From positions 1 through 64,000 of the IMG/VR virus record IMGVR_UViG_651703075_000001: a stretch of DNA of 64,000 nucleotides; one strand, 5' to 3'. How positions within the stretch are numbered: position 1 is the stretch's first letter; every line of letters begins with the position of its first letter. The position numbers and the translations under genes are program-made. The notes under the pieces were generated by a model that was not told the origin of the DNA, made no database searches, and worked only from the letters and a program-made list of their open reading frames with translations. Of this stretch, positions 7,660 to 34,592 are shown in pieces. Source of the DNA: a virus. Its lineage: Duplodnaviria; Heunggongvirae; Uroviricota; Caudoviricetes.

Positions 7660-8046
7660 ATGGCACGCAAGCAACATTCCATTGAAATCAACGGTGACCG
7701 TTTCCTGATCACCTCCATGCCGGCCACCACTGGCCTGTCTCATCTGAAGATGCTCACCAAGCTTCTCGGCCCGGCTCTTGCAGAGGCAGGCGCCGGCTCG
7801 AAGGAGGGTGCAGGTTCGCTGGACATCGCCACCCTGGTCAGCAAGGTGGTTGAGCGGATCGACGAGGTTGAGGTGGAAAAGATGATCATCGGCATGATGA
7901 CCAGTGTGTCCAAGAACAACATGGAAATCAACTTCAACGAGGAGTTCTCGGCTGACTTTGGCAAGCTGTTCCAGTTGGTGACTGAGGTAGTGAAGCTGAA
8001 CTTCGGCTCGGTTTTTCAAGCACTCGGTTTCGACGGTCAACAGTAA
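7660..8046 (+). CDS. tail assembly chaperone (gpG-like)
   Basis: 128 aa ORF immediately upstream of tape measure; T5 run at 8012-8016 near its end with open -1 frame continuing to 8288. Confidence 0.45.
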   Translation: MARKQHSIEINGDRFLITSMPATTGLSHLKMLTKLLGPALAEAGAGSKEGAGSLDIATLVSKVVERIDEVEVEKMIIGMMTSVSKNNMEINFNEEFSADFGKLFQLVTEVVKLNFGSVFQALGFDGQQ

Positions 8047-20505: not shown

Positions 20506-20752
20506 AAAGGCCAAGCTGCACCGTAGCAGTACAGTGGTGCTGAGCATCTTCCTCTTCATCCTCTCGATGCTGATCATCTTCGAGCCGCTGATCCCAGGGC
20601 TTGCAGGTGTTCTCGGTCCCGACCTATACCCCAAGGTCGTGGCAGGCGTCTCCATGCTGATTGCAGCAGGCCGGTACATCGTCCAAACCTCCCTCCGGGG
20701 CATGGTAGTTCAAGTATCGGATGAGATTCCCAAGGAGGAAGAGGAAAAATGA
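20486..20752 (+). CDS. holin (class II-like, two TMDs)
   Basis: 88 aa, two hydrophobic segments (VVLSIFLFILSMLIIF; VVAGVSMLIAAG), charged C-tail EEEEK, overlaps endolysin end. Confidence 0.45.
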   Translation: MLKLVAEKAKLHRSSTVVLSIFLFILSMLIIFEPLIPGLAGVLGPDLYPKVVAGVSMLIAAGRYIVQTSLRGMVVQVSDEIPKEEEEK

Positions 20753-21166
20753 AACTGATGACTGCCATGCGGATAGCGTTGGTAGTCCCTCGTTCTGGGG
20801 CTCTCCTGGCTTCTCCGGGAGAGTCATCAGAAAATCGACAGGCTGGAGCAGAGCCTGGCTTCTCTGGAGGCCAGCTACGCAGAAGCATCGGCATCGTACC
20901 GATCCTTCCGAAAGCAATGTCTGTCCGTGTTCTCAATGAACGAGGAACTGGTGATTCAAAACAAGACCCTGGAGGCCTCTGTGGGCTCCGTGGTACAACG
21001 TTTGGATCGGACCCCTACACTGACCCTACCCGAGGTGAAAGATGCGCCTACGAGCGTTCCTGGGCATGTGGCTGCTGAGCGTCTCTCTCCTGGGACTATG
21101 GAGTTGCTCAACGAAGCCTTCTGTGCCGCAGCCCCCGCAGGTCATCCTGCCTGTGCTCCCAAATGA
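20749..21166 (+). pseudogene. i-spanin (Rz)-like gene needing +1 frame change near 20786-20800
   Basis: frame 1 start MKLMTAMRIALVVP (20749) and frame 2 continuation SLVLGLSWLL + coiled coil IDRLEQSLASLEASYAEA... to stop 21166 together give TMD + periplasmic coiled coil; frame 2 has no start codon of its own. Confidence 0.35.
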
Positions 21167-25355: not shown

Positions 25356-25727
25356 ATGGACGTGATGGACGACGATTTTGAGTTCCCTGATATCCTGCCG
25401 GAGTGGGCTGAAGAGTTTCATCCCTCGGAAGGAAAGCACCAGATAGGGGCGCAGTTGGCGACTAAGGATGGACGAGTAACTGGGAATGGGGTGATATTCT
25501 GTGCTGTGCCGTGGAAATTCTACCCTAAGCTTGACCTGTTCCTTGTGGTGACGGATGCAGGAAACGTTCTCAAGTTGACCGAGTACGAGTTGAACAGCCT
25601 CTTCCACTGGCCACAATATATTGCCGACCTCAACCAACCGACTCCGGCTGAGGTGATGTATACGGTAAAGACAGGACCAATTGGGGACCTTATTCAAGAC
25701 TTCAAGGAGGAAAACGGACATGCGTAA
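25356..25727 (+). CDS. hypothetical protein
   Basis: 123 aa from ATG with RBS gggaga just after upstream stop. Confidence 0.45.
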   Translation: MDVMDDDFEFPDILPEWAEEFHPSEGKHQIGAQLATKDGRVTGNGVIFCAVPWKFYPKLDLFLVVTDAGNVLKLTEYELNSLFHWPQYIADLNQPTPAEVMYTVKTGPIGDLIQDFKEENGHA

Positions 25728-26940
25728 ACTATCTTCAATTCGTCAAGTGTCAGGTATCGAACCCATCGAGGGTGCAGACCGGATCGAGAAGGCCTTCTTC
25801 GGGGGCTGGACCACCATCGTTCCAAAAGGTGTGCTGTCCCCCGGCGACCTGGCAGTCTACTTCGAGATTGACAGCCTGCTGCCTGTGGCAGACCCAGCAT
25901 TCTCTCACCTCACCAAGAACCTGGTGAAGGTTACCCGGAAGAAAGAGTCCTGTTCCCTGGGGATGGGTTGCGAGGTGGTGGGAGCCTGTTATGCCTCGTC
26001 GCAAGGTTGCCCTAGTGAGTGCGGTGGCGAAGAGGAGGTGGTATACTCTCGCCTGCGGACTATGAAAATGCGAGGTGTAACCTCCCAGGGTTTGGCCCTT
26101 CCTCTACGAGCCTTCCCAGGCCGCCTGGCACAGTTGGAAGCTGGCATCCTTCGCCGGCTACAGAAAGCACCCGTGCAAGAGGTGTTGGACGACCTGAATG
26201 AGAAGATGCCGCTGGATGAAATGCTCGGCGTGCTGAAGTACGAGAAACCTGAAGAGGTGGAGGCAGGGAATAGTAATGTCTCCCGCGTCAGCACGTTCCC
26301 CTCATACATCCCGAAGACGGACCAGGAAAGGGTCCAGAACATCCCGCTGGAGAAGGTCATTGCAGATGGACCATATCAGGTAACCATCAAGATGGATGGC
26401 TCCAGTTGCACCGTATGGGTGAATGAAGAGGGTGTGGGCATGGCCAGCCGAAATCAAACACTCGTGGAGCCCACCTGGACGAATTTCCCCAGCTTCGAGG
26501 ATTGCAATCACTTTGGGCAGGCCGTCCTGGACCAGGACATCCCGCGCAAGTTGGCAGAGTTCTATGAACTCAGCAAACAGCCGTTCGCAATTCAAGGCGA
26601 GGTGTGTGGCCCGGCTATTCAGGGCAACAAGGAGAAACTGGAGAAACCTACCTTCTTCTTGTTCAGTGTCTTCAACATCAAGGAGGGTGCCTACGAGTCC
26701 CCAGAGTATTGCAGGATGCTGGCGGAAACTCTCGATATTAAGCATGTGCCTGTGCTCTCGACTCAGCATGTGTTTGAAGATGTCACTTATGCCGACATCC
26801 TTGCCATGGCTGAAGGTAAGAGCTATAATCCTGCCACCAACAGGGAAGGCCTTGTTTTCACAGCGGTAGACAAGAACCGCTACGGTCACTACCCCCATTT
26901 CAAAGCTATCAGCCAATCTTGGCTGGCGAAACACGAGTAA
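25720..26940 (+). CDS. ATP-dependent RNA ligase (Rnl5/DraRnl-like: N-terminal OB-like region + nucleotidyltransferase)
   Basis: 406 aa, RBS aaggagga; motif I TIKMDGSS (KxDG), motif IV EGLVF, motif V HFKAIS; Cys-rich insert CSLGMGCEVVGACYASSQGCPSECGG. Confidence 0.55.
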   Translation: MRKLSSIRQVSGIEPIEGADRIEKAFFGGWTTIVPKGVLSPGDLAVYFEIDSLLPVADPAFSHLTKNLVKVTRKKESCSLGMGCEVVGACYASSQGCPSECGGEEEVVYSRLRTMKMRGVTSQGLALPLRAFPGRLAQLEAGILRRLQKAPVQEVLDDLNEKMPLDEMLGVLKYEKPEEVEAGNSNVSRVSTFPSYIPKTDQERVQNIPLEKVIADGPYQVTIKMDGSSCTVWVNEEGVGMASRNQTLVEPTWTNFPSFEDCNHFGQAVLDQDIPRKLAEFYELSKQPFAIQGEVCGPAIQGNKEKLEKPTFFLFSVFNIKEGAYESPEYCRMLAETLDIKHVPVLSTQHVFEDVTYADILAMAEGKSYNPATNREGLVFTAVDKNRYGHYPHFKAISQSWLAKHE

Positions 26941-28363: not shown

Positions 28364-28390
28364 TCAGGGCCCTCCGTGGGCCCTTTTTAT
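28364..28390 (+). terminator. rho-independent terminator (GGGCCCTCCGTGGGCCC + TTTTT)
   Basis: GC hairpin plus T tract. Confidence 0.7.
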
Positions 28391-28407: not shown

Positions 28408-30360
28408 GTGCTGATTGGGAAGTTCGCCTGTGTCCTGCCAGGATGTGATAGCAGCGACGCTATGGCGGTCTACGAGGACGAGCCGGGGGTCTTCGGTGGA
28501 CGCTGTTTCAGTTGTGATCGGATGGTTTCGAACAACACCCTGGCAAGGTCTCCCCTGGGGGAAGAGTTGGGAGCAGTGATCATCAAAGGTGATCGACGTG
28601 CCCAGGCCCAGAGGAGGAAAGAGGAGAAAGAAGTGAGAGAGATTCAACGCAAGCCCGTCATCACTGCCGAAGACCGGGAGAAAATCCAAGGCAACGGCGG
28701 GGCTGACACGACCCTGTTCCGGGGCATAGCCCGGCAGACCAACGAGAAGTACGGGTGTATCACACACTACGCAGACAACGAGCCTGTGGTGCGATATTAT
28801 CCGATCCATGACCACGGTGAGCTGGTAGGATACAAGGTTCGTCAGGTTCCCAAGTCCTTCTATGCCATCGGTCGGAACGACAAACACTGCGAGCTTTATG
28901 GTCAACACCTGTTCCCTGCCGGAGGCAAATACCTCCTCATTGTAGGCGGAGAGGAGGATGCTCATGCAGCTTACCAGATGCTCCGAGTTGATCAGCTCCA
29001 GCGCTGGAAGAAGAAGAACCCTTACGCGGACATCGCAGATGCACCGTTGCCGTATCCAGTCGTAAGTCCGACTGTGGGTGAAACCTCGGCAGCCAGCCAG
29101 TTGGCTGCCAACTATGAGTACATCAACTCTTTCGACGAAATCATCCTCATGTTCGACGCGGATGAGAAGGGAGAGCAGGGTGCTCAGGCGGCGCTGGAAG
29201 TGCTGCCCATGGGGAAGGTACGGATTGCCAACCTCCCAGGGAAGGACCCCAACAAGATGTTGGAGGACAAGCAGGCCAAGGCGTTCATCAATGCCTTCTT
29301 CGACGCCCGCAAGGCATCCCCAGCAGGCATTGTGGGGTCGGGGCAGATTCGAGAGGCTATGCTGAACAAGGCAATGGCGCCTAAGCTGCCTCTGCCTTCG
29401 TTCCTGTACGAGCTGTCCAGGAAAACCGCTGGAGGGTTCCCGCTGAACTCCATCGTCAACCTGATCGCCGGTTCTGGCATCGGTAAGACCACCTGGGTCA
29501 ACGAATTGGTGTACCATTGGATTTTCAACAGTCCGTACAAGATGGGCATCGTTACCCTGGAGGCCGACATCGCAGAGTACGGGGGCTACCTGCTGTCCCG
29601 GCACCTGGGCCAGAAGCTGGCCTTGATTGAGGACCCTCAGGAGTACCTGGCAACAATCGAATCTGACAGGGTAGAGCAGGCGAGTAACGAGCTGTTCCTC
29701 AATGCCGACGGGTCTGACCGGTTCCTGCTGGTGGATGATCGGGGGGACCACGATGCGATCAAGCAGAAGATTGAGCAGATGATCATTTCGGGGGGCATCC
29801 AGGTGATCGTCCTTGACCCAATGTCAGACCTGATTGACGGGATGGACACAGGTGAACAGGCGTTGTTCATGAAGTGGCAGAAGCAGATGGTGAAGGCTTA
29901 CGACGTAATCTTCATCAACGTCAACCACACCCGTAAGGGCAAGGACAACAAGACTGCTGCAAGCCGGGGCGCTGAGCTGAGCGAGGAAGACATCATTGGC
30001 TCCTCGACCATCTACAAGTCGGGCAACATCAACATCACCCTGGTGCGCAACAAGCACGCGGAGGACGATTTGGAACGGAACACCACCCTGGTGACCCTTA
30101 CCAAATGCCGCCACACAGGGTACACCGGACCAGCGGGTAGGGTCCTGTACAACATCAAGACACACACTTTGATTTCCCTGACGGACTTCCTCAACCAGCA
30201 GGTGGAGGAGTACAACCAGGAACACGGAGAGTCTGAAGGGTTAGAGCAATACCCTGAAGCAGAGTGTGTCGAGCAAGTTCATTCGCCGGAAGATGTGGCT
30301 CCCGTCTACCCTCAGTTGGACGGCCCACCGCCGACCGGGGACGATGATATTCCGTTCTGA
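28408..30360 (+). CDS. bifunctional DNA primase-helicase (T7 gp4-like)
   Basis: 650 aa; N-terminal Zn ribbon C-x2-C...C-x2-C, TOPRIM-like acidic core, Walker A GSGIGKTTW, DnaB-family helicase region; C-terminus ends DDDIPF. Confidence 0.8.
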   Translation: MLIGKFACVLPGCDSSDAMAVYEDEPGVFGGRCFSCDRMVSNNTLARSPLGEELGAVIIKGDRRAQAQRRKEEKEVREIQRKPVITAEDREKIQGNGGADTTLFRGIARQTNEKYGCITHYADNEPVVRYYPIHDHGELVGYKVRQVPKSFYAIGRNDKHCELYGQHLFPAGGKYLLIVGGEEDAHAAYQMLRVDQLQRWKKKNPYADIADAPLPYPVVSPTVGETSAASQLAANYEYINSFDEIILMFDADEKGEQGAQAALEVLPMGKVRIANLPGKDPNKMLEDKQAKAFINAFFDARKASPAGIVGSGQIREAMLNKAMAPKLPLPSFLYELSRKTAGGFPLNSIVNLIAGSGIGKTTWVNELVYHWIFNSPYKMGIVTLEADIAEYGGYLLSRHLGQKLALIEDPQEYLATIESDRVEQASNELFLNADGSDRFLLVDDRGDHDAIKQKIEQMIISGGIQVIVLDPMSDLIDGMDTGEQALFMKWQKQMVKAYDVIFINVNHTRKGKDNKTAASRGAELSEEDIIGSSTIYKSGNINITLVRNKHAEDDLERNTTLVTLTKCRHTGYTGPAGRVLYNIKTHTLISLTDFLNQQVEEYNQEHGESEGLEQYPEAECVEQVHSPEDVAPVYPQLDGPPPTGDDDIPF

Positions 30361-30380
30361 CGGATGAAAGGAGGAGTAAC

Positions 30381-33038
30381 GTGGAAGAGGTACAGAAACG
30401 CCGGGTAGTATTCGATATCGAGGCTACCGGGCTGATCGGGGAGGGGACGGTGGATTACACCGCCTCACCCTGGCGCCTGAAAGAGGATTTCAAGCTACAC
30501 TGTGCTGTAGCTCGGGACATTGACACCGACGAGGTGTTCAAGTGGGGTCCTGACGAGGTGATGGACTTCGCCAAATGGCTGGGTGAAGAGTGCTCGGTCG
30601 TAATTGGCCACAACATTATCAACTACGACTTGCTGGCTCTGAAGCTGACATGCGGGCTGGAGTACACCATCGGGTGGGGAGAGACCAAGGACACCATCAA
30701 CGGTAACCCCGTCAAGATCGTGGACACCCTGGTAATCTCCAAAGCCCTTAACCCTGACCGTCGCCCTGGCCACGGCATTGGGGCTTGGGGTGACAAGCTG
30801 GGCCTGGCCAAGATCGATTGGCGTGCGAAGGCTGTCGAACTGGGATTGATTACCGAGAACGCCCCTCGTGGTGCAGAGTTCAAGACGTATCACCCGGAGA
30901 TGCTGGAGTACAACGTCCGAGACGTGGATGTCAACCTGCTGGTCTACAAAGCTCTGATGGCAGAGTGGGGTGCATGGAACTGGGCTCCGGCAGTCCAGAC
31001 CGAAAGCTACGTGGCTTGGGTGGTGACCCGTCAAAGTCACAGGGGGTTCTTCTTCGACGAGCGCCTGGCCCAGGCCAACGTCCGGGAGCTGGATCAACTG
31101 ATGGAGGAGTGTCGTGCCATTGTTGAACCGATCCTTCCCCCGAAGAAGCCGACCAAGACGGAAGCTGCCAAGTATTGCTTCCCGAAGACCCAGGAGAAGA
31201 AGATCAAGGGCGGTCTGGGACTCTCCAGCAACATGGAGAAGTTCCTGGAGAAGATGGGCGGTAAGCACCTTCCACGTTCGGGGCCGGATGCTCCCAACTA
31301 CGTGGAAATCAACGGCAGGACGTATGGCCTACCGTTCGATCATACGGTAAGCTTGCTTACCGAGGTGCCTGCCAAGATCAGCGATACAACCCACATCAAG
31401 GGTTGGCTGGTGGACATGGGATGGGACCCGACTTCGTGGAAGGAGCGTGATCTTTCGTCGGATCAGAAGACGAAGGCCCAGCTACCTTTCGAGAAGTTCG
31501 AAAAGGTGGTTACCTCGTACATCGAGCAAACCTATGCAAGCCCGTTCAAGAAGTACCGCCTGGAGCACCTGAAAGAGAAGCTGCGTGCTAAGTGGTCCCT
31601 GGCCTTCATGATGGACAACCCAGATATCGTTCTGGAGTACATCCTGGAGCGAGGCAATGATCGTCAGTTGAAGGTGTGGACCAACCCGGAGTTCACCGTA
31701 GGTCAGGACAAGGACCTCTGTCCCGCCCTGGAACGAATCTCCGAGAAGTTCCCTCACGTTCGGCACGTGACCAACTACCTGACGTATCGCCATCGGCGGA
31801 ACTCGATCCTAGGTGGTGGGTATGACCCGGACGACCTGGACGAAGACGGCATGCCTGTCAAGGGGTACATGGCCTACCAGCGTGAAGATGGTCGGATTGC
31901 AACTCCGGCAGACAGTTGTGGTGCTGGTACCAGCCGGTTCAAACACAAGCAGGTGGCCAACATTCCTCGTGTGACCTCGCTGTACGGGGTACCGATGCGA
32001 AACCTGTTCGGCGTGGACACCAACAAGTGTTGGCAGATTGGCTACGACTTTGACTCCCTGGAAGCGAAGATCGAAGCCCACTACTGCCTGAGCACGGCAA
32101 TGCGTCTCAGCCCTGCTGCGGCACAGAAGCTCAAGATCAAGTTTGGGTCCAACTTCGCCAAGTACCGGGAAGCGTGCATCCAGGCAGCGCAAGAGTATGC
32201 GGTAGCGCTTGTGGCTGAGAAGCCCAACGATATTCACACGGTGACGGCGGCGAAGATTTCCACCATCATCGGAGGAGACTTCAGTCGTACCAATGCCAAG
32301 TCGGTCAAGTATGGCTGCTCCTACGGGGCTCAGGTGGCACGTGTAGCGAAGATCGTCGGCTGCTCTATGCAGGAGGCCCAGGCCATCTTCGACGCCTTCT
32401 GGGAGGCTGCTAGCCCCCTTGCGCTGCTGAAGACGGTTCTCACCGACTTCTGGAAGGAGAAGGGGAACAAGAAGTTCATCGTTGGGATCGATGGCCGCCA
32501 GATTCCTACCCGTTCGGAGCATGCTCTGGTCAACAGCCTGTTCCAATCGGCAGGTGTTATCTGCGCCAAGGTGGCGATGATCATGCACGACCAGAAGCTG
32601 ATGGCTGAAGGTCTGCTGGTAGACTTCTGGAAGGACGACTGGAAGAACAAGTCGTACTGCCAGCAGCTCATTGCTTACCACGATGAGAGCCAGTTGGAAG
32701 TGACCAAGGATTTGGTCAAGTTCAAGATGTTCTCCAAGGAAGCCTTGGGCTGGCAAGAGATGCAGCACGAGGACCCAGAGGAGCAGAAGAAGCTTCAGAA
32801 GAAGGAAGACGCTCGATGCAAGGCCCTGGTCCAGAAGTGGAAGGACGAGATGGAAGAGTCCTCGGGTCAAATCTGGAGCGACATCGGAGAGTCCCCGAAG
32901 GGTGGTTGGTTCGTAGGCTACAGTCGAGCAGGGGAGACGGCTATCGAGGCTGTCAAAGCTGCTGGTGAACACTTCAAGCTGCGAGTAGACCTGTCCGCAG
33001 GGTACATGTTGGGAACTACGTGGGGCACCTGCCACTAA
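30381..33038 (+). CDS. DNA polymerase, family A (T7 gp5-like) with 3'-5' exonuclease domain
   Basis: 885 aa; Exo I VVFDIEATG, Exo II/III motifs, pol motif A DYDSLEAKI, motif B KxxxxxxxYG (KSVKYGCSYG), motif C YHDESQ. Confidence 0.85.
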   Translation: MEEVQKRRVVFDIEATGLIGEGTVDYTASPWRLKEDFKLHCAVARDIDTDEVFKWGPDEVMDFAKWLGEECSVVIGHNIINYDLLALKLTCGLEYTIGWGETKDTINGNPVKIVDTLVISKALNPDRRPGHGIGAWGDKLGLAKIDWRAKAVELGLITENAPRGAEFKTYHPEMLEYNVRDVDVNLLVYKALMAEWGAWNWAPAVQTESYVAWVVTRQSHRGFFFDERLAQANVRELDQLMEECRAIVEPILPPKKPTKTEAAKYCFPKTQEKKIKGGLGLSSNMEKFLEKMGGKHLPRSGPDAPNYVEINGRTYGLPFDHTVSLLTEVPAKISDTTHIKGWLVDMGWDPTSWKERDLSSDQKTKAQLPFEKFEKVVTSYIEQTYASPFKKYRLEHLKEKLRAKWSLAFMMDNPDIVLEYILERGNDRQLKVWTNPEFTVGQDKDLCPALERISEKFPHVRHVTNYLTYRHRRNSILGGGYDPDDLDEDGMPVKGYMAYQREDGRIATPADSCGAGTSRFKHKQVANIPRVTSLYGVPMRNLFGVDTNKCWQIGYDFDSLEAKIEAHYCLSTAMRLSPAAAQKLKIKFGSNFAKYREACIQAAQEYAVALVAEKPNDIHTVTAAKISTIIGGDFSRTNAKSVKYGCSYGAQVARVAKIVGCSMQEAQAIFDAFWEAASPLALLKTVLTDFWKEKGNKKFIVGIDGRQIPTRSEHALVNSLFQSAGVICAKVAMIMHDQKLMAEGLLVDFWKDDWKNKSYCQQLIAYHDESQLEVTKDLVKFKMFSKEALGWQEMQHEDPEEQKKLQKKEDARCKALVQKWKDEMEESSGQIWSDIGESPKGGWFVGYSRAGETAIEAVKAAGEHFKLRVDLSAGYMLGTTWGTCH

Positions 33039-33054
33039 GGTGCCTGGAGGAAAT

Positions 33055-33261
33055 ATGAGCAAGAAAGGTAATACCGAACCGACAGGGATGGCGATCCTGG
33101 ATTACGTGAACATGCGTCACCAGGAATTGGAAGACTTCCTCCTCTACTGGGTAGAGAACCATGCCAAGGGGAAGAACTTTCCTTTGGAGATGCCCAACGA
33201 TGCGGAGTGGTTTGAGCATGAGCTGGCCTACCTGACGGTGGAAGGTATCCGAGAGGCTTGA
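33055..33261 (+). CDS. hypothetical protein
   Basis: 68 aa from ATG with RBS ctggagga. Confidence 0.4.
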   Translation: MSKKGNTEPTGMAILDYVNMRHQELEDFLLYWVENHAKGKNFPLEMPNDAEWFEHELAYLTVEGIREA

Positions 33262-33286
33262 CATTGCCTCTGGATTGTGCTTCAAT
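33258..33286 (+). promoter_or_regulatory. promoter-like element TTGACA-N17-TTCAATAG
   Basis: one of two copies of identical architecture in the 33.26-33.4 kb intergenic region. Confidence 0.4.
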
Positions 33287-33354
33287 AGGCTCCTCGCTGC
33301 AACAATGCGCGGGGAGCTAGCAACCTGAAGTATGTGAGTTTTTGATAAAAGTCC

Positions 33355-33383
33355 TTGACTTTCAATAGCTTATATGCTTCAAT
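33355..33383 (+). promoter_or_regulatory. promoter-like element TTGACT-N17-TTCAATAG
   Basis: second copy; the TTCAATAG octamer occurs three times within 100 nt. Confidence 0.4.
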
Positions 33384-33407
33384 AGCGTTCCAAATGAGGA
33401 GGACATC

Positions 33408-33593
33408 ATGTCTATTCAAGTAGAGGAGACCACCGAATATGTGGTCTGCAACAAGTACAACCTGACCAGCCGGTCCTACGCCTTCAGCCTCCGGGAAGAC
33501 GCCCGGAAGATGAAAGCTCAACTGGGTGGCAAGCAGCTAGGGTGGATCATCGAGCGAATTACTCGCAAGATTGTCACCGAAGAAGTTCGCTAA
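33408..33593 (+). CDS. hypothetical protein
   Basis: 61 aa, strong RBS tgaggagga. Confidence 0.45.
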   Translation: MSIQVEETTEYVVCNKYNLTSRSYAFSLREDARKMKAQLGGKQLGWIIERITRKIVTEEVR

Positions 33594-33660
33594 CAAGCGA
33601 CAAACCCCCCGATTAGGGGCAACTACCGCCCGATAGGGTAATTGATAGGAGAAGTAAAAC

Positions 33661-34554
33661 ATGGCACTGCGTCCCAAAAGCACTGGCAACACCGGCACCC
33701 CGCGTGAGTTCGTCAACCTCCCCGAGCCGACCCCGGGCAACCACGAAGCCCGCGTCTCGCTGATCGTCTACCTGGGCGAGCAAAACCGGGAAGACTTCGT
33801 TGATGATAACGGTGAGAGCAAAGCTCAGAAGCCTGTGGATCAGGTGGCAGTATTCGCCGACCTGGTGGAAGAAGTAGTGGACTACGGTGGTGACATCGGT
33901 GAGCAACAGTACCGCCTGATGCTGAACAAGTCCTTCCGTGGTGAAGTGAGTGGTATCACCCTCCAGGCGACCCCGCCGCGTGACGGCGAAGGCCGTATCG
34001 TAGAAGGTGGCATCTGGACCTACCACCCGAACAGCCCGCTGACCAAGCTGGCGAAAGCAATGCAACCGGGTGCAGCAACCGCGATCCTGGACGGTACCGA
34101 CCTGGATATCGAGCCGCTGCTCAACCAGCCGTTCATGTGCACTGTGAACGTCAAGAAGACCCCGGCGAAGAACGACAAGAAGGACAAAGACGGCAACCCG
34201 CTCGTCTACACCAACGTCAGCTTCGGTGGCGCGACCCAGGTACCGGCCAAGATGATGCGTGCAGGTGTAGCTGAGCTGCGTCAGAAGCCGCTCCTGATCG
34301 ACTTCGACAACGTGACTATCGAGACCGCCCGCCTGCTCCGTCGCGATGTGATCCGCAAGATTCAGCAGGCTAACAACCTGGCTGGCACCCGCATGGAAGC
34401 CGTTCTCCGTGAACTGGCCAAGGAACGCGGCGACAAGGCACCGGAAGCCAAAGAAGCTCCCGCACCGCGCCCCGTAGCAACCCAGCAGAGCGCTCCCCCG
34501 GCTCAGGGTCCTGCTTCGGACGTGGACAGCTTCGACGACGATATTCCGTTCTAA
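33661..34554 (+). CDS. ssDNA-binding protein candidate (gp2.5-like role) with bacterial SSB-type C-terminal tail DDDIPF
   Basis: 297 aa, RBS gataggag; acidic/Pro-rich linker then terminal DVDSFDDDIPF identical to E. coli SSB tip; located in replication module. Confidence 0.5.
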   Translation: MALRPKSTGNTGTPREFVNLPEPTPGNHEARVSLIVYLGEQNREDFVDDNGESKAQKPVDQVAVFADLVEEVVDYGGDIGEQQYRLMLNKSFRGEVSGITLQATPPRDGEGRIVEGGIWTYHPNSPLTKLAKAMQPGAATAILDGTDLDIEPLLNQPFMCTVNVKKTPAKNDKKDKDGNPLVYTNVSFGGATQVPAKMMRAGVAELRQKPLLIDFDNVTIETARLLRRDVIRKIQQANNLAGTRMEAVLRELAKERGDKAPEAKEAPAPRPVATQQSAPPAQGPASDVDSFDDDIPF

Positions 34555-34561
34555 GACGGAA

Positions 34562-34592
34562 CCCTCAGGGCCCTTCGGGGCCCTTTCTTTTA
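34562..34592 (+). terminator. rho-independent terminator (GGGCCCTTCGGGGCCC + TTTCTTTT)
   Basis: UUCG-loop GC hairpin + T tract. Confidence 0.7.

What the first reader, a model, noticed from the sequence alone, without database searches (positions are those of the whole stretch)
28408..34554. Primase-helicase and SSB-like protein both end in the bacterial SSB tail DDDIPF
The gp4-like primase-helicase ends ...PPPTGDDDIPF and the SSB-like protein ends ...DVDSFDDDIPF. DDDIPF is the exact C-terminal tip of E. coli-type SSB, which docks many host genome-maintenance proteins. T7 gp4 and gp2.5 both use acidic Phe-terminated tails to bind the polymerase. Here both tails copy the host SSB tip instead, suggesting either a shared docking site on the phage polymerase or hijacking of host SSB-interacting proteins.
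Basis: partly seen in the sequence, partly recalled or inferred. Interest (0 to 1): 0.7.

Follow-up and report, generated by a model that had tools for sequence, protein, structure and literature searches.

The report
Host SSB tip on phage helicase
In Pseudomonas phage KPP10 both the T7-type primase-helicase and an unannotated phage-type single-strand-DNA-binding protein end in the docking peptide of the host's own SSB, a natural twist on the known T7 'acidic tail' mechanism that also turns up on other phage replication proteins and has never been tested.

Summary
The window is Pseudomonas phage KPP10. DDDIPF occurs twice in six-frame translation (expected 0.0003), both times directly before a stop: in ORF46, a T7 gp4 homolog, and in ORF50.

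ORF50 is annotated hypothetical. It models as an OB-fold with a disordered tail and is the only SSB candidate in the genome. It is not detectably homologous to bacterial SSB, T7 gp2.5 or N4 SSB. Its family nearly always ends acidic-x-P-F (95/111). Its last 11 residues match the P. aeruginosa SSB at 10/11 (DVDSFDDDIPF vs DYDSFDDDIPF).

The helicase tip is derived. Relatives end in T7-like [D/E]-[F/Y] (PAK_P1: GRDTEY), and only Nankokuvirus has a roughly 44-57-residue acidic tether ending DDDIPF.

The polymerase between them is a T7 gp5 homolog, and twin terminators bracket the block.

Best reading (0.45): a T7-like replisome whose two tails share one docking pocket, probably on the phage polymerase. 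Rival (0.3): recruitment of host SSB partners.

A sample of 120 viral ORFs ending DDDIPF includes SF2 helicases and a processivity factor, so the tip is a reused tag.

Verdict: new variant of a known kind; moderately interesting.

The parts
28366..28384 (+). GC-rich hairpin plus T-run (terminator-like) immediately upstream of ORF46; twin of the one after ORF50
   Evidence: AGGGCCCTCCGTGGGCCCT followed by TTTTATT; 7 pairs, 6 of them G-C
28408..30360 (+). ORF46, T7 gp4-type primase-helicase (650 aa, GTG start)
   Evidence: phrog_239 E 6.8e-179; Toprim_2 and AAA_25 above Pfam cut-offs; T7 gp4 tblastn E 1e-43; AF2 pLDDT 89
28429..28515 (+). Cys4 zinc-finger of the primase (C8, C13, C33, C36)
   Evidence: C8, C13 and C33 invariant and C36 nearly invariant in 59 homologs. 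This supports the GTG start at 28408 over the 632-aa annotation used in some records
28801..29271 (+). TOPRIM primase domain (about residues 132-288)
   Evidence: Toprim_2 residues 234-285; phrog_47 primase residues 132-288
29395..30225 (+). SF4 (DnaB/RecA-like) helicase domain, folded up to the last helix at residues 591-606
   Evidence: AAA_25 residues 344-512; DnaB_C residues 333-569 (below cut-off); AF2 secondary structure
30226..30357 (+). Disordered acidic C-terminal tether of the helicase (residues 607-650). The clade-specific extension beyond the family core is 57 aa, contains no K or R, and has net charge -14
   Evidence: residues 619-650 have pLDDT below 50; alignments to all non-Nankokuvirus homologs stop at about residues 588-618
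30340..30357 (+). Helicase tip DDDIPF (GAC GAT GAT ATT CCG TTC), followed by TGA
30381..33038 (+). ORF47, family-A DNA polymerase homologous to T7 gp5; candidate receptor of both tails
   Evidence: the only PDB sequence matches are T7 DNA polymerase (E 1.6e-24). Three (MAFFT) to four (BLAST) of the 6 front-basic-patch positions are retained. A Lys-rich insertion of about 96 aa lies at the position of the T7 thioredoxin-binding domain
33055..33593 (+). Two small ORFs (ORF48 33055-33261, ORF49 33408-33593) of unknown function inside the same terminator-bracketed block
   Evidence: annotation only
33661..34554 (+). ORF50, phage-type OB-fold SSB candidate (297 aa; annotated 'hypothetical protein')
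33733..34428 (+). Folded OB-fold core of ORF50 (about residues 25-256)
   Evidence: pLDDT mostly above 90; strands 26-41, 59-74, 81-87, 157-168, 182-192
34429..34551 (+). Disordered P/A/Q-rich linker plus tip of ORF50 (residues 257-297), resembling the C-terminal domain of Pseudomonas SSB
   Evidence: pLDDT 48-61. Tail against P. delhiensis SSB tail scores 111 versus 53±8 for shuffles (0/2000). The linker alone is marginal (10/5000 against P. delhiensis, 177/5000 against P. aeruginosa)
34519..34551 (+). ORF50 terminal 11-mer DVDSFDDDIPF, matching 10/11 of P. aeruginosa SSB DYDSFDDDIPF; tip codons 34534-34551 are GAC GAC GAT ATT CCG TTC, followed by TAA
   Evidence: the last 36 nt match 32/36 of the P. 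delhiensis ssb 3' end
34567..34584 (+). GC-rich hairpin plus T-run (terminator-like) immediately after ORF50
   Evidence: AGGGCCCTTCGGGGCCCT followed by TTCTTTT

Best explanation
KPP10 encodes a T7-type replisome in one terminator-bracketed block. It comprises a gp4-type primase-helicase (ORF46), a gp5-type polymerase (ORF47) and an SSB (ORF50).

ORF50 is built from a phage-specific OB-fold core and a disordered tail. That tail ends in the host-type SSB C-terminal peptide.

In the Nankokuvirus lineage, the helicase's ancestral T7-like acidic [D/E]-[F/Y] tip was replaced. In its place is a longer, strongly acidic, disordered tether that ends in the same DDDIPF.

The two tips are therefore interchangeable ligands for one SSB-Ct-type pocket: a hydrophobic hole for the terminal Phe and its carboxylate, with a basic rim for the aspartates. 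Most likely that pocket is on the phage polymerase. It would give helicase-polymerase tethering and SSB-polymerase hand-off by competition for one site, as shown for T7 gp4 and gp2.5 on gp5.

Because the peptide is the host's, cross-talk with host SSB and its partners is a probable side benefit.

Shown here: the sequences, the homologies, the disorder of the tails, family-wide conservation, lineage specificity, and the host match.

Inferred: that the tails bind anything at all, and that the receptor is ORF47.
For: 1. ORF46 and ORF47 are direct homologs of T7 gp4 and gp5.
2. In T7, both acidic Phe-terminated tails bind the same polymerase basic patches. PDB 6P7E shows the gp4 peptide DTDF on gp5, and the gp2.5 tail binds K587-R599 (PMC12339929). 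The T7 tails were read from the genome.
3. Helicases of relatives keep T7-like tips: 39/120 end [D/E]F and 69/120 end in an aromatic residue. PAK_P1, which infects the same host, ends GRDTEY. Their ORF50-like SSBs end x-P-F. The two-tail architecture is therefore ancestral, and KPP10 simply made the two tips identical.
4. Both tips sit on disordered tethers. The helicase tether has net charge -14 and no basic residue.
5. ORF47 keeps 3-4 of the 6 T7 front-basic-patch positions. It also has a Lys-rich insertion where T7 has its tail-binding thioredoxin-binding domain.
6. There is a precedent for an x-P-F tip on a non-canonical phage SSB recruiting a phage-encoded partner: HK620 SSB with tip NDYPPF recruits Sak4 (PMC5928155).
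7. Twin terminators bracket exactly ORF46-ORF50.
8. The tips are invariant in all Nankokuvirus variants while the linkers vary.
Against:
- The polymerase patch is the same in relatives whose helicases carry other tips. There is thus no sign of polymerase co-evolution with the new tip.
- Only 3 of the 6 patch residues align in the multiple alignment.
- ORF50 matches the host SSB over 11 residues, including lineage-specific D-x-D-S-F. Docking on a phage polymerase would not require this.
- The same DDDIPF tip occurs on SF2 helicases in phage contigs where no PolA was seen in the captured DNA.
- Nankokuvirus genomes are more than 90% identical, most above 97%. Invariance of the tips within the genus is therefore weak evidence for selection.
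Confidence: 0.45

Rival explanations
1. Host hijack. The tips let the phage SSB and the phage helicase plug directly into the P. aeruginosa SSB interactome. Candidate partners include Pol III chi, DnaG, PriA, RecQ, RecG, RecO, ExoI, RNase HI, Topo III and Ung. These enzymes would be recruited to phage forks, or titrated away from host SSB.
For: - ORF50's last 11 residues match the host SSB at 10/11, including the Pseudomonas-specific D-x-D-S-F.
- Bacterial tails are lineage-specific: DSF in Pseudomonadaceae 8/10, DFA/DFS in Xanthomonadales 23/24, DDM/ADM in Betaproteobacteria 45/61. ORF50-family members carry the same kinds of tail (DSF, DNF, DDM, SDM).
- The last 36 nt match 32/36 of a host-lineage ssb gene.
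- The exact tip also sits on SF2 helicases (phrog_16) and on a processivity factor (phrog_947). In the captured DNA of the five SF2-helicase contigs examined, no PolA was seen.
- The SSB-Ct is the established docking peptide for more than a dozen host enzymes (PMC4137731, PMC10164576).
Against: - KPP10 encodes its own polymerase, primase-helicase, exonuclease, ligase and a second helicase, so the need for host enzymes is unclear.
- Half of the ORF50 family has S, A, E, T or C at position -3, whereas the sampled bacterial SSBs have I in 107/112. Exact host mimicry is therefore not general.
- PAK_P1, which infects the same host, matches only the hexapeptide.
- The helicase matches only the universal 6 residues.
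- A host-like tail could be a by-product of capture from a host ssb gene.
Confidence: 0.3
2. Phage-internal regulation without the polymerase. The tails fold back on, or cross-bind, the ssDNA groove of ORF50, as a DNA mimic and auto-inhibitor like the gp2.5 and E. coli SSB tails. Alternatively, they recruit another phage protein, such as the T7 gp6-like exonuclease ORF54, the DprA-like protein or helicase ORF139. The helicase tail would then load or hand off ORF50 at the fork.
For: - In T7, Enc34 and E. coli SSB, the acidic tails bind the protein's own DNA groove (PMC5686142; PMC5928155 discussion).
- The HK620 SSB tip recruits the phage annealase Sak4 only when the SSB is on ssDNA.
- KPP10 encodes a DprA-like protein, a second helicase and an exonuclease.
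Against: - AF2 does not dock the ORF50 tail on its core (pLDDT below 50 for residues 286-295).
- This reading gives no specific reason for the helicase to copy the tip exactly.
- It was not testable here.
Confidence: 0.1
3. Evolutionary relic or decoy. The helicase tip arose by copying the 3' end of ORF50 or of a host ssb gene and has no specific docking role. Alternatively, the tips serve to confuse host defence systems that sense phage SSBs.
For: - The two tip-coding 18-mers differ at one base. Both use the minority codons GAT (32%) and ATT (28%), hinting at copying.
- Conservation within a genus that is more than 90% identical proves little.
- Defence systems triggered by phage SSBs exist (title and abstract of bioRxiv 10.64898/2026.02.22.705581).
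Against: - Upstream of the hexapeptide, the helicase tail shows no similarity to ORF50 or to host SSB (43 versus 42±7 in shuffles). Only 18 nt could have been copied.
- The tip ends a 57-aa, K/R-free, acidic extension that looks purpose-built.
- Several unrelated phage replication proteins independently carry the same tip, which argues for function.
Confidence: 0.07

Closest known systems
Bacteriophage T7 replisome: acidic C-terminal tails of gp4 (…NDTDF) and gp2.5 (…EDGDF) docking on gp5/thioredoxin
   Same: - The helicase-primase and polymerase are homologous.
- Both the helicase and the SSB end in a disordered acidic tail with a C-terminal Phe.
- In T7, the two tails share binding sites on the polymerase (PMC12339929).
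- Relatives of KPP10 still carry T7-like helicase tips, for example PAK_P1 with GRDTEY.
   Different: - The tip is the bacterial I-P-F type, not D-F, and it is identical in the two proteins and in the host SSB.
- The helicase tether is about 3 times longer than in T7 (57 aa beyond the core).
- The polymerase keeps only 3-4 of the 6 patch residues.
Bacterial SSB C-terminal tip (SSB-Ct, …DFDDDIPF) as the hub for SSB-interacting proteins
   Same: - The hexapeptide is identical in both proteins.
- ORF50 also shares the Pseudomonas-specific 9-11-mer and a P/A/Q-rich disordered linker.
- The position is the same: the extreme C-terminus with a free Phe carboxylate.
   Different: - Neither carrier is a bacterial-type SSB. 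ORF50 has no PF00436 match, and E. coli SSB aligns only to the two tails.
- One of the carriers is a helicase.
Phage HK620 SSB (DUF669 family, distant N4-SSB relative) with C-terminal NDYPPF
   Same: It is a non-canonical phage SSB whose bacterial-like x-P-F tip is required to recruit a partner, the phage annealase Sak4 (PMC5928155). ORF50-family members give weak DUF669 signals: 2/66 members at E 0.005, and a BFVD DUF669 protein at E 3.6e-4.
   Different: - No significant profile link was found (hhalign to N4 SSB 0.16%).
- The HK620 tip is only similar to the host tip, not identical to it.
- No helicase with the same tip was described there.
PrgE of plasmid pCF10 (PDB 8S4S), a non-typical OB-fold SSB

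Membership tests
T7 gp4-type primase-helicase (ORF46) | N-terminal Cys4 zinc-binding domain | tested here: met
   C8, C13 and C33 invariant and C36 nearly invariant in 59 homologs
T7 gp4-type primase-helicase (ORF46) | TOPRIM primase domain followed by an SF4 RecA/DnaB-like helicase domain in one chain; sequence homology to gp4 | tested here: met
   Toprim_2 26.3 bits (cut-off 22.1); AAA_25 30.5 bits (cut-off 27); phrog_239 E 6.8e-179; tblastn to T7 gp4 29% identity, E 1e-43
T7 gp4-type primase-helicase (ORF46) | Acidic disordered C-terminal tail ending in an aromatic residue | tested here: met
   57-aa extension with net charge -14, ending in F; pLDDT below 50 for residues 619-650
T7 gp4-type primase-helicase (ORF46) | The tail docks on the cognate polymerase | not testable with these tools
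   No complex prediction or binding assay is available; there is only partial conservation of the T7 basic patch in ORF47
Bacterial SSB family, PF00436 (ORF50) | Sequence-detectable SSB-type OB domain | tested here: not met
   No PF00436 hit. E. coli SSB tblastn against the whole genome matches only the two tails
Bacterial SSB family, PF00436 (ORF50) | Disordered linker plus acidic tip D-D-D-I-P-F at the extreme C-terminus | tested here: met
   10/11 identity with the P. aeruginosa SSB end
T7 gp2.5-type SSB (ORF50) | Sequence or profile similarity to gp2.5, or the gp2.5 fold as top structural match | tested here: not met
DUF669 / N4-SSB superfamily (ORF50) | Profile match to DUF669 or N4 SSB | tested here: inconclusive
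   2/66 family members hit DUF669 at E 0.005, not significant given 66 proteins scanned at a threshold of E 1. BFVD DUF669 protein E 3.6e-4. hhalign to N4 SSB 0.16%. N4 SSB itself ends in a basic ...SLFGKK
Single-strand-DNA-binding protein, functional class (ORF50) | OB-fold core | tested here: met
Single-strand-DNA-binding protein, functional class (ORF50) | Preferential binding of ssDNA | not testable with these tools
   Requires EMSA or fluorescence titration. Indirect support comes from synteny between the polymerase and the exonuclease in all relatives, and from the absence of any other SSB in the genome
SSB-Ct docking motif (both tips) | Extreme C-terminal Pro-Phe with a free carboxylate, a hydrophobic residue at -3 and at least 3 acidic residues at -4 to -6, at the end of a disordered segment | tested here: met
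SSB-Ct docking motif (both tips) | Binds a hydrophobic pocket with a basic rim on a partner protein | not testable with these tools
   No partner was identified experimentally

The most novel reading that the evidence does not exclude
The host SSB C-terminal peptide may be a portable address tag that phages graft onto many different replisome proteins. Carriers seen here are gp4-type and SF2 helicases, processivity factors, several unrelated SSB families, and small proteins of unknown function. The tag would give these proteins direct access to the host's SSB-interactome, or let them compete with host SSB for it. On this reading, the KPP10 helicase is the first gp4-type example of a general and so far undescribed hijacking strategy. 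Phage tails would then track host-lineage-specific SSB tails (DSF, DFA or DDM before DDDIPF).
Probability: 0.3. Interest if true: 0.8.

Novelty: new variant of a known kind. Interest (0 to 1): 0.58.

Why it matters
KPP10 and PAK_P3-type phages (Nankokuvirus) are therapeutic candidates against P. aeruginosa, yet their replication proteins are largely annotated 'hypothetical'. This work contributes three things.

1. It assigns the missing SSB (ORF50, phrog_2544, 'unknown function').
2. It defines a compact T7-like replisome operon.
3. It identifies two 6-11-residue peptides whose deletion or F-to-A change should give clean phenotypes.

More broadly, T7 taught that a helicase and an SSB can share one docking site on a polymerase through similar acidic tails. 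Here nature has made the two tails identical, and identical to the host hub peptide. That makes the question 'polymerase docking or host hijack?' directly testable with peptides.

The census result is that SF2 helicases, a processivity factor and dozens of unrelated phage proteins end in exactly DDDIPF. This suggests a general and easily searchable principle for predicting phage-host replication interfaces. It may also help predict hosts from the residues that precede the tip.

Tried and rejected
- **Profile comparison of the ORF50 family with T7 gp2.5 and N4 SSB.** No relation was found. I therefore dropped the 'gp2.5-like' label implied by the T7 analogy.
- **Pfam scan of 66 family members.** It gave only noise plus two weak DUF669 hits.
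- **Covariation of helicase and SSB tips across genomes.** In about 30 contigs holding both genes, no helicase other than KPP10-type carries x-P-F. There is no covariation signal to exploit.
  - The two other helicases with P-F-like ends, P0118 (…DDNPF) and P0181 (…DDCPFAM), lie on contigs that end before the SSB gene.
- **Search for the P. aeruginosa SSB tail in PDB and in plasmids.** PDB chains are truncated at residue 121, and the plasmid search returned only enterobacterial SSBs.
  - This was solved with a primer-derived 21-mer scan of genomes and a final homolog search.
- **DNA-level capture from a host ssb gene.** A 32/36 match over the last 36 nt is suggestive, but the shared codons are mostly the preferred ones, so it is not proof.
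- **Linker similarity to the true host SSB.** It is only marginal (177/5000 shuffles), so I claim only the 11-mer.
- **Co-evolution of the polymerase basic patch with the helicase tip.** The patch is the same in relatives with other tips.
- **Polymerase-peptide complex prediction.** I considered fusing the polymerase to the tail peptide.
- **Literature searches for SSB-tail mimicry by non-SSB phage proteins.** Nothing was found in the held library. This is absence of evidence only.
Full report
**Identity of the window and check of the observation**

The 6.1-kb region is 100% identical to Pseudomonas phage KPP10 (AB472900.2 / NC_015272.2, genus Nankokuvirus), at the same coordinates. Forty-one phage records share at least 90% identity with it.

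ORF46 (28408-30360, 650 aa) ends ...PPPTGDDDIPF. ORF50 (33661-34554, 297 aa, annotated 'hypothetical protein') ends ...DVDSFDDDIPF.

DDDIPF occurs exactly twice in the six-frame translation of the window, and both occurrences are directly followed by a stop. From composition, 0.00028 occurrences are expected, and 0.0000087 with a stop. None appeared in 300 shuffles.

In the complete 88,322-bp genome, no other ORF of at least 50 aa has such a terminus.

**What the three large genes are**

ORF46 is a genuine T7 gp4-type primase-helicase.
- It matches phrog_239 at E 6.8e-179 and has Toprim_2 and AAA_25 above the Pfam cut-offs.
- It is 29% identical to T7 gp4 over residues 13-588 (E 1e-43).
- It has a conserved Cys4 zinc finger (C8, C13, C33, C36).

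ORF47 (30381-33038) is a family-A polymerase. Its only sequence matches among solved structures are T7 DNA polymerase (E 1.6e-24).

ORF50 belongs to phrog_2544, 'unknown function'. With an alignment of 66 homologs, AlphaFold2 gives a confident model (pLDDT 85.8). It has a beta-rich core at about residues 25-256 and a disordered segment from about residue 260 to the end.
- Foldseek against PDB finds nothing significant.
- The viral structure library shows the fold is widespread among uncharacterised phage proteins, including one labelled DUF669.

Kazlauskas et al. proposed that DUF669 and N4-SSB proteins are highly diverged OB-fold SSBs with acidic tails (PMC4889955). My direct tests of that link are inconclusive:
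- 2/66 members hit DUF669 at E 0.005;
- hhalign to N4 SSB gives probability 0.16%.

There is also no detectable relation to T7 gp2.5 (probability 0.4%).

KPP10 has no other SSB. E. coli SSB, gp2.5 and N4 SSB find nothing in the genome except the two tails, which E. coli SSB matches.

In every relative examined, the ORF50 homolog lies between the polymerase and the gp6-like exonuclease.

I conclude that ORF50 is the phage's SSB by fold, tail, position and exclusion. It is not a member of the bacterial SSB or gp2.5 families.

**The two tails have different histories**

*The ORF50 family.* This covers 111 near-full-length homologs at 36-52% identity.
- 95 end in P-F, 99 end in P-[FYW], and 107 have P-F within the last 25 residues.
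- A mean of 4.7 acidic residues lies in positions -10 to -3.
- The tip extends to distant syntenic homologs: PAK_P1 ends ...NVDDDIPF, KIL1 ends ...DDSDAPF, and the nearest metagenomic relative L074 ends ...AFDEDIPF.

*The helicase family.* Among the 120 best homologs:
- 63 end in F, 39 end in [D/E]-F, and only 2 end in P-F (KPP10-type, and P0118 with ...DDNPF).

In about 30 contigs that carry both genes, only KPP10-type genomes have x-P-F on the helicase. Closer comparisons give the same picture:
- The closest non-Nankokuvirus helicases (54% identity) have no such tip.
- PAK_P1, a sister genus on the same host, ends ...EEEGRDTEY. This is strikingly like T7 gp4's ...SNDTDF.

Alignments to all non-Nankokuvirus homologs stop at about residues 588-618. 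The KPP10 extension beyond the family core is 57 residues, with no K or R and a net charge of -14.

The AF2 model of the helicase (pLDDT 89) is folded up to a last helix at residues 591-606. Residues 619-650 have pLDDT below 50.

The helicase tip is therefore a derived, lineage-specific replacement of a T7-like tip, mounted on a longer acidic tether.

**Relation to the host SSB**

The chromosomal P. aeruginosa SSB ends ...PQPAQDYDSFDDDIPF (P0259, a cluster of 321 sequences). The literature agrees on the DDDIPF tip (PMC4137731, PMC9087215).

ORF50 ends ...GPASDVDSFDDDIPF, which is 10 of the last 11 residues.

I sampled 107 proteobacterial SSBs. In that sample the hexapeptide is nearly constant, but the three residues before it are lineage-specific:

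| Lineage | Residues before DDDIPF | Count |
|---|---|---|
| Pseudomonadaceae | DSF | 8/10 |
| Xanthomonadales | DFA or DFS | 23/24 |
| Betaproteobacteria | DDM or ADM | 45/61 |

ORF50 carries the Pseudomonas type. The bacterial tails that score best against the ORF50 tail are mostly from Pseudomonas and its close relatives. Other ORF50-family members carry DNF, DDM or SDM before the tip.

At the DNA level, the last 36 nt of ORF50 match 32/36 of the P. delhiensis ssb 3' end.

The whole tail aligns to a Pseudomonas SSB tail far better than shuffles do: 111 versus 53±8, with 0/2000 shuffles reaching the observed score. Once the last 11 residues are removed, the linker similarity is only marginal: 10/5000 against P. 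delhiensis and 177/5000 against P. aeruginosa.

The helicase tail shows no similarity to host SSB beyond the six residues (43 versus 42±7).

The two tip-coding 18-mers differ at one base and share the minority codons GAT and ATT. This is a weak hint of copying within the genome.

**Context of the block**

Two nearly identical GC-rich hairpins with T-runs lie at 28366-28384 and 34567-34584. They are immediately before ORF46 and immediately after ORF50. The helicase, the polymerase, two small ORFs and the SSB therefore look like one transcription unit.

All sequence variants of both proteins within Nankokuvirus keep the tips, and the few substitutions lie in the linkers. Because the genus is very homogeneous, this is only weak evidence for selection.

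**Mechanism**

In T7, the acidic Phe-terminated tails of gp4 and gp2.5 bind the same basic patches of gp5. PDB 6P7E holds the gp4 peptide DTDF, and the gp2.5 tail anchors on K587, K589, R590, R591, K594 and R599 (PMC12339929).

ORF47 retains K, K and R at the positions of R590, R591 and R599 in a multiple alignment, and one more basic position in the pairwise alignment. It also has a Lys-rich insertion of about 96 aa where T7 has its thioredoxin-binding domain. The patch is the same in relatives whose helicases end differently, so I see no co-evolution signal.

A precedent shows that an x-P-F tip on a non-canonical phage SSB can serve a phage partner. The HK620 SSB tip NDYPPF is needed to recruit Sak4 (PMC5928155).

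My best explanation (0.45) is a T7-like replisome in which helicase and SSB present the same ligand to one pocket, most likely on ORF47.

The main rival (0.3) is direct use of the host SSB interactome. Three things favour it:
- the 11-residue host match of ORF50;
- the lineage-type tails in the family;
- the census described below.

The two readings are not mutually exclusive.

The minor rivals are tail-groove or other phage-internal interactions (0.1), and relic or decoy (0.07).

**How unusual is the tip on a non-SSB protein?**

I scanned viral contigs for DNA encoding DDDIPF followed by TAA or TGA.
- 34 match the E. coli SSB N-domain.
- 11 match the ORF50-family profile. Six of these match both, presumably through the tail.
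- 81 match neither. The 73 of these that are at least 60 aa long form 38 clusters when the tip is masked.

Among the 81 are:
- six SF2 helicases of 560-623 aa, one of them truncated (ResIII/DEAD/Helicase_C; phrog_16 'DNA helicase', E 7.5e-92);
- a phrog_947 'DNA polymerase processivity factor' (E 2e-45);
- Pam3_Gp34-like proteins;
- further SSB-annotated PHROGs (phrog_743, phrog_6015);
- a 16-member cluster of proteins, mostly 85-130 aa, with no family match.

The SF2-helicase contigs show temperate-phage-like modules, with no PolA in the DNA captured.

The tip is therefore a widely reused tag on phage replication proteins. The KPP10 helicase is one instance of it, and the only gp4-type instance with the exact tip in my sample.

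I found no description of this pattern in the searchable literature. That is absence of evidence only.

**Verdict**

The system works like the T7 tail-docking system and is a member of the gp4/gp5 replisome family. Its SSB belongs to a different, phage-specific OB-fold family. It is a new variant of a known kind.

Interest is moderate (0.58). The mechanism is familiar, but three features would interest specialists: the exact copy of the host hub peptide on a replicative helicase, the host-lineage match of the SSB tail, and the breadth of the census. The competing mechanisms are cheaply testable with peptides and tail mutants.

Noticed in passing
window 28366-28384 and 34567-34584: Two nearly identical GC-rich hairpin terminators (AGGGCCC-loop-GGGCCCT followed by a T-run) bracket exactly the ORF46-ORF50 block, suggesting a single replisome transcription unit.
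   Followed up: partly
ORF50-family proteins P0028, P0043, P0055, P0059, P0083; P. aeruginosa-labelled SSB paralogs P0306, P0355, P0363: Some proteins continue for 11-18 residues after the D-D-D-I-P-F motif and end in a second motif, for example ...GKLSYLI...GKLFLHMI...SRSLLLIC...RRLWLLV. This motif occurs both in phage ORF50-like SSBs and in bacterial SSB paralogs that are probably carried on mobile elements. It resembles a clamp-binding motif (my own impression, not tested) and would bury the Phe carboxylate of the SSB tip.
   Followed up: no
viral loci L207 (2210-3946), L242 (4836-6524), L271 (3366-5237), L276 (4501-6252), L285 (942-2774), L240: A family of phage SF2 helicases (ResIII/DEAD/Helicase_C; phrog_16) ends in exactly DDDIPF. 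In L207 and L271, an ORF of about 680 aa lies directly downstream. From its N-terminal sequence I guess it is a primase-polymerase, but this was not tested. RusA-like and exonuclease genes lie upstream, and no PolA is present in the captured DNA.
   Followed up: partly
viral locus L284 (ORF ending near 7668+; 392 aa): A protein matching phrog_947 'DNA polymerase processivity factor' (E 2e-45) also ends ...KSDIEDDDIPF.
   Followed up: no
viral loci L214, L224, L227, L234, L286 and others (16-member cluster): Proteins mostly of 85-130 aa that start MAYEMRPGxGSxFKNDKK...HPxYxG and end in DDDIPF. The representative tested has no Pfam or PHROG match. This is the largest non-SSB cluster in the DDDIPF census.
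   Followed up: no
viral locus L244 (259-aa ORF ending at about 2833+): A phrog_3284 protein of unknown function carries a Pseudomonas-type SSB C-terminal module...QRPQAPAPAPAPQGDFDSFDDDIPF, on an unrelated N-terminal domain. This is another apparent case of grafting the host SSB tail.
   Followed up: no
L035 1584-3339, L038 2457-2760, L051 1980-2364 (IMG/VR relatives of KPP10): An ORF that appears to be a UvrD/SF1-like helicase lies upstream of the polymerase in related contigs. The assignment rests on my reading of motifs in the sequence. The ORF ends in a conserved ...EGY(S/T)xxEIxxLPF, in genomes whose ORF50-like SSB ends DDDIPF.
   Followed up: no
window 28408-28461: Some GenBank records annotate the helicase as 632 aa starting at M19. 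Conserved C8 and C13 of the zinc finger argue for the 650-aa GTG start at 28408.
   Followed up: yes
window about 31100-31385 (ORF47 residues about 240-335): The polymerase has a Lys-rich insertion of about 96 aa at the position of the T7 thioredoxin-binding domain, conserved in relatives. The related contig L074 encodes a 79-aa thioredoxin-like protein at 20614-20853.
   Followed up: partly
window 33661-34554 and homologs in other records: ORF50 homologs are annotated 'structural protein' in the Epa16, Epa18, Epa26, Acibel004 and TAC1 records. One record calls the homolog 'terminase small subunit'. In PAK_P3 and the RP phages, a 'putative antisense RNA' is annotated across the gene.
   Followed up: no
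cluster of P0115: Fragments of this phage helicase are filed in NCBI as partial Staphylococcus aureus proteins (WP_174834431.1, WP_217468802.1). A full copy is filed as a P. aeruginosa protein on an 88,329-bp contig. That contig is probably a phage genome inside a bacterial assembly, or contamination.
   Followed up: no
window 25720-26940 (ORF41): An RNA ligase with a PHA02142-type OB domain lies upstream of the replisome block. A separate ATP-dependent DNA ligase, a DprA-like protein and a second helicase lie on the other arm of the genome at 73.8-79.1 kb, outside the window.
   Followed up: no
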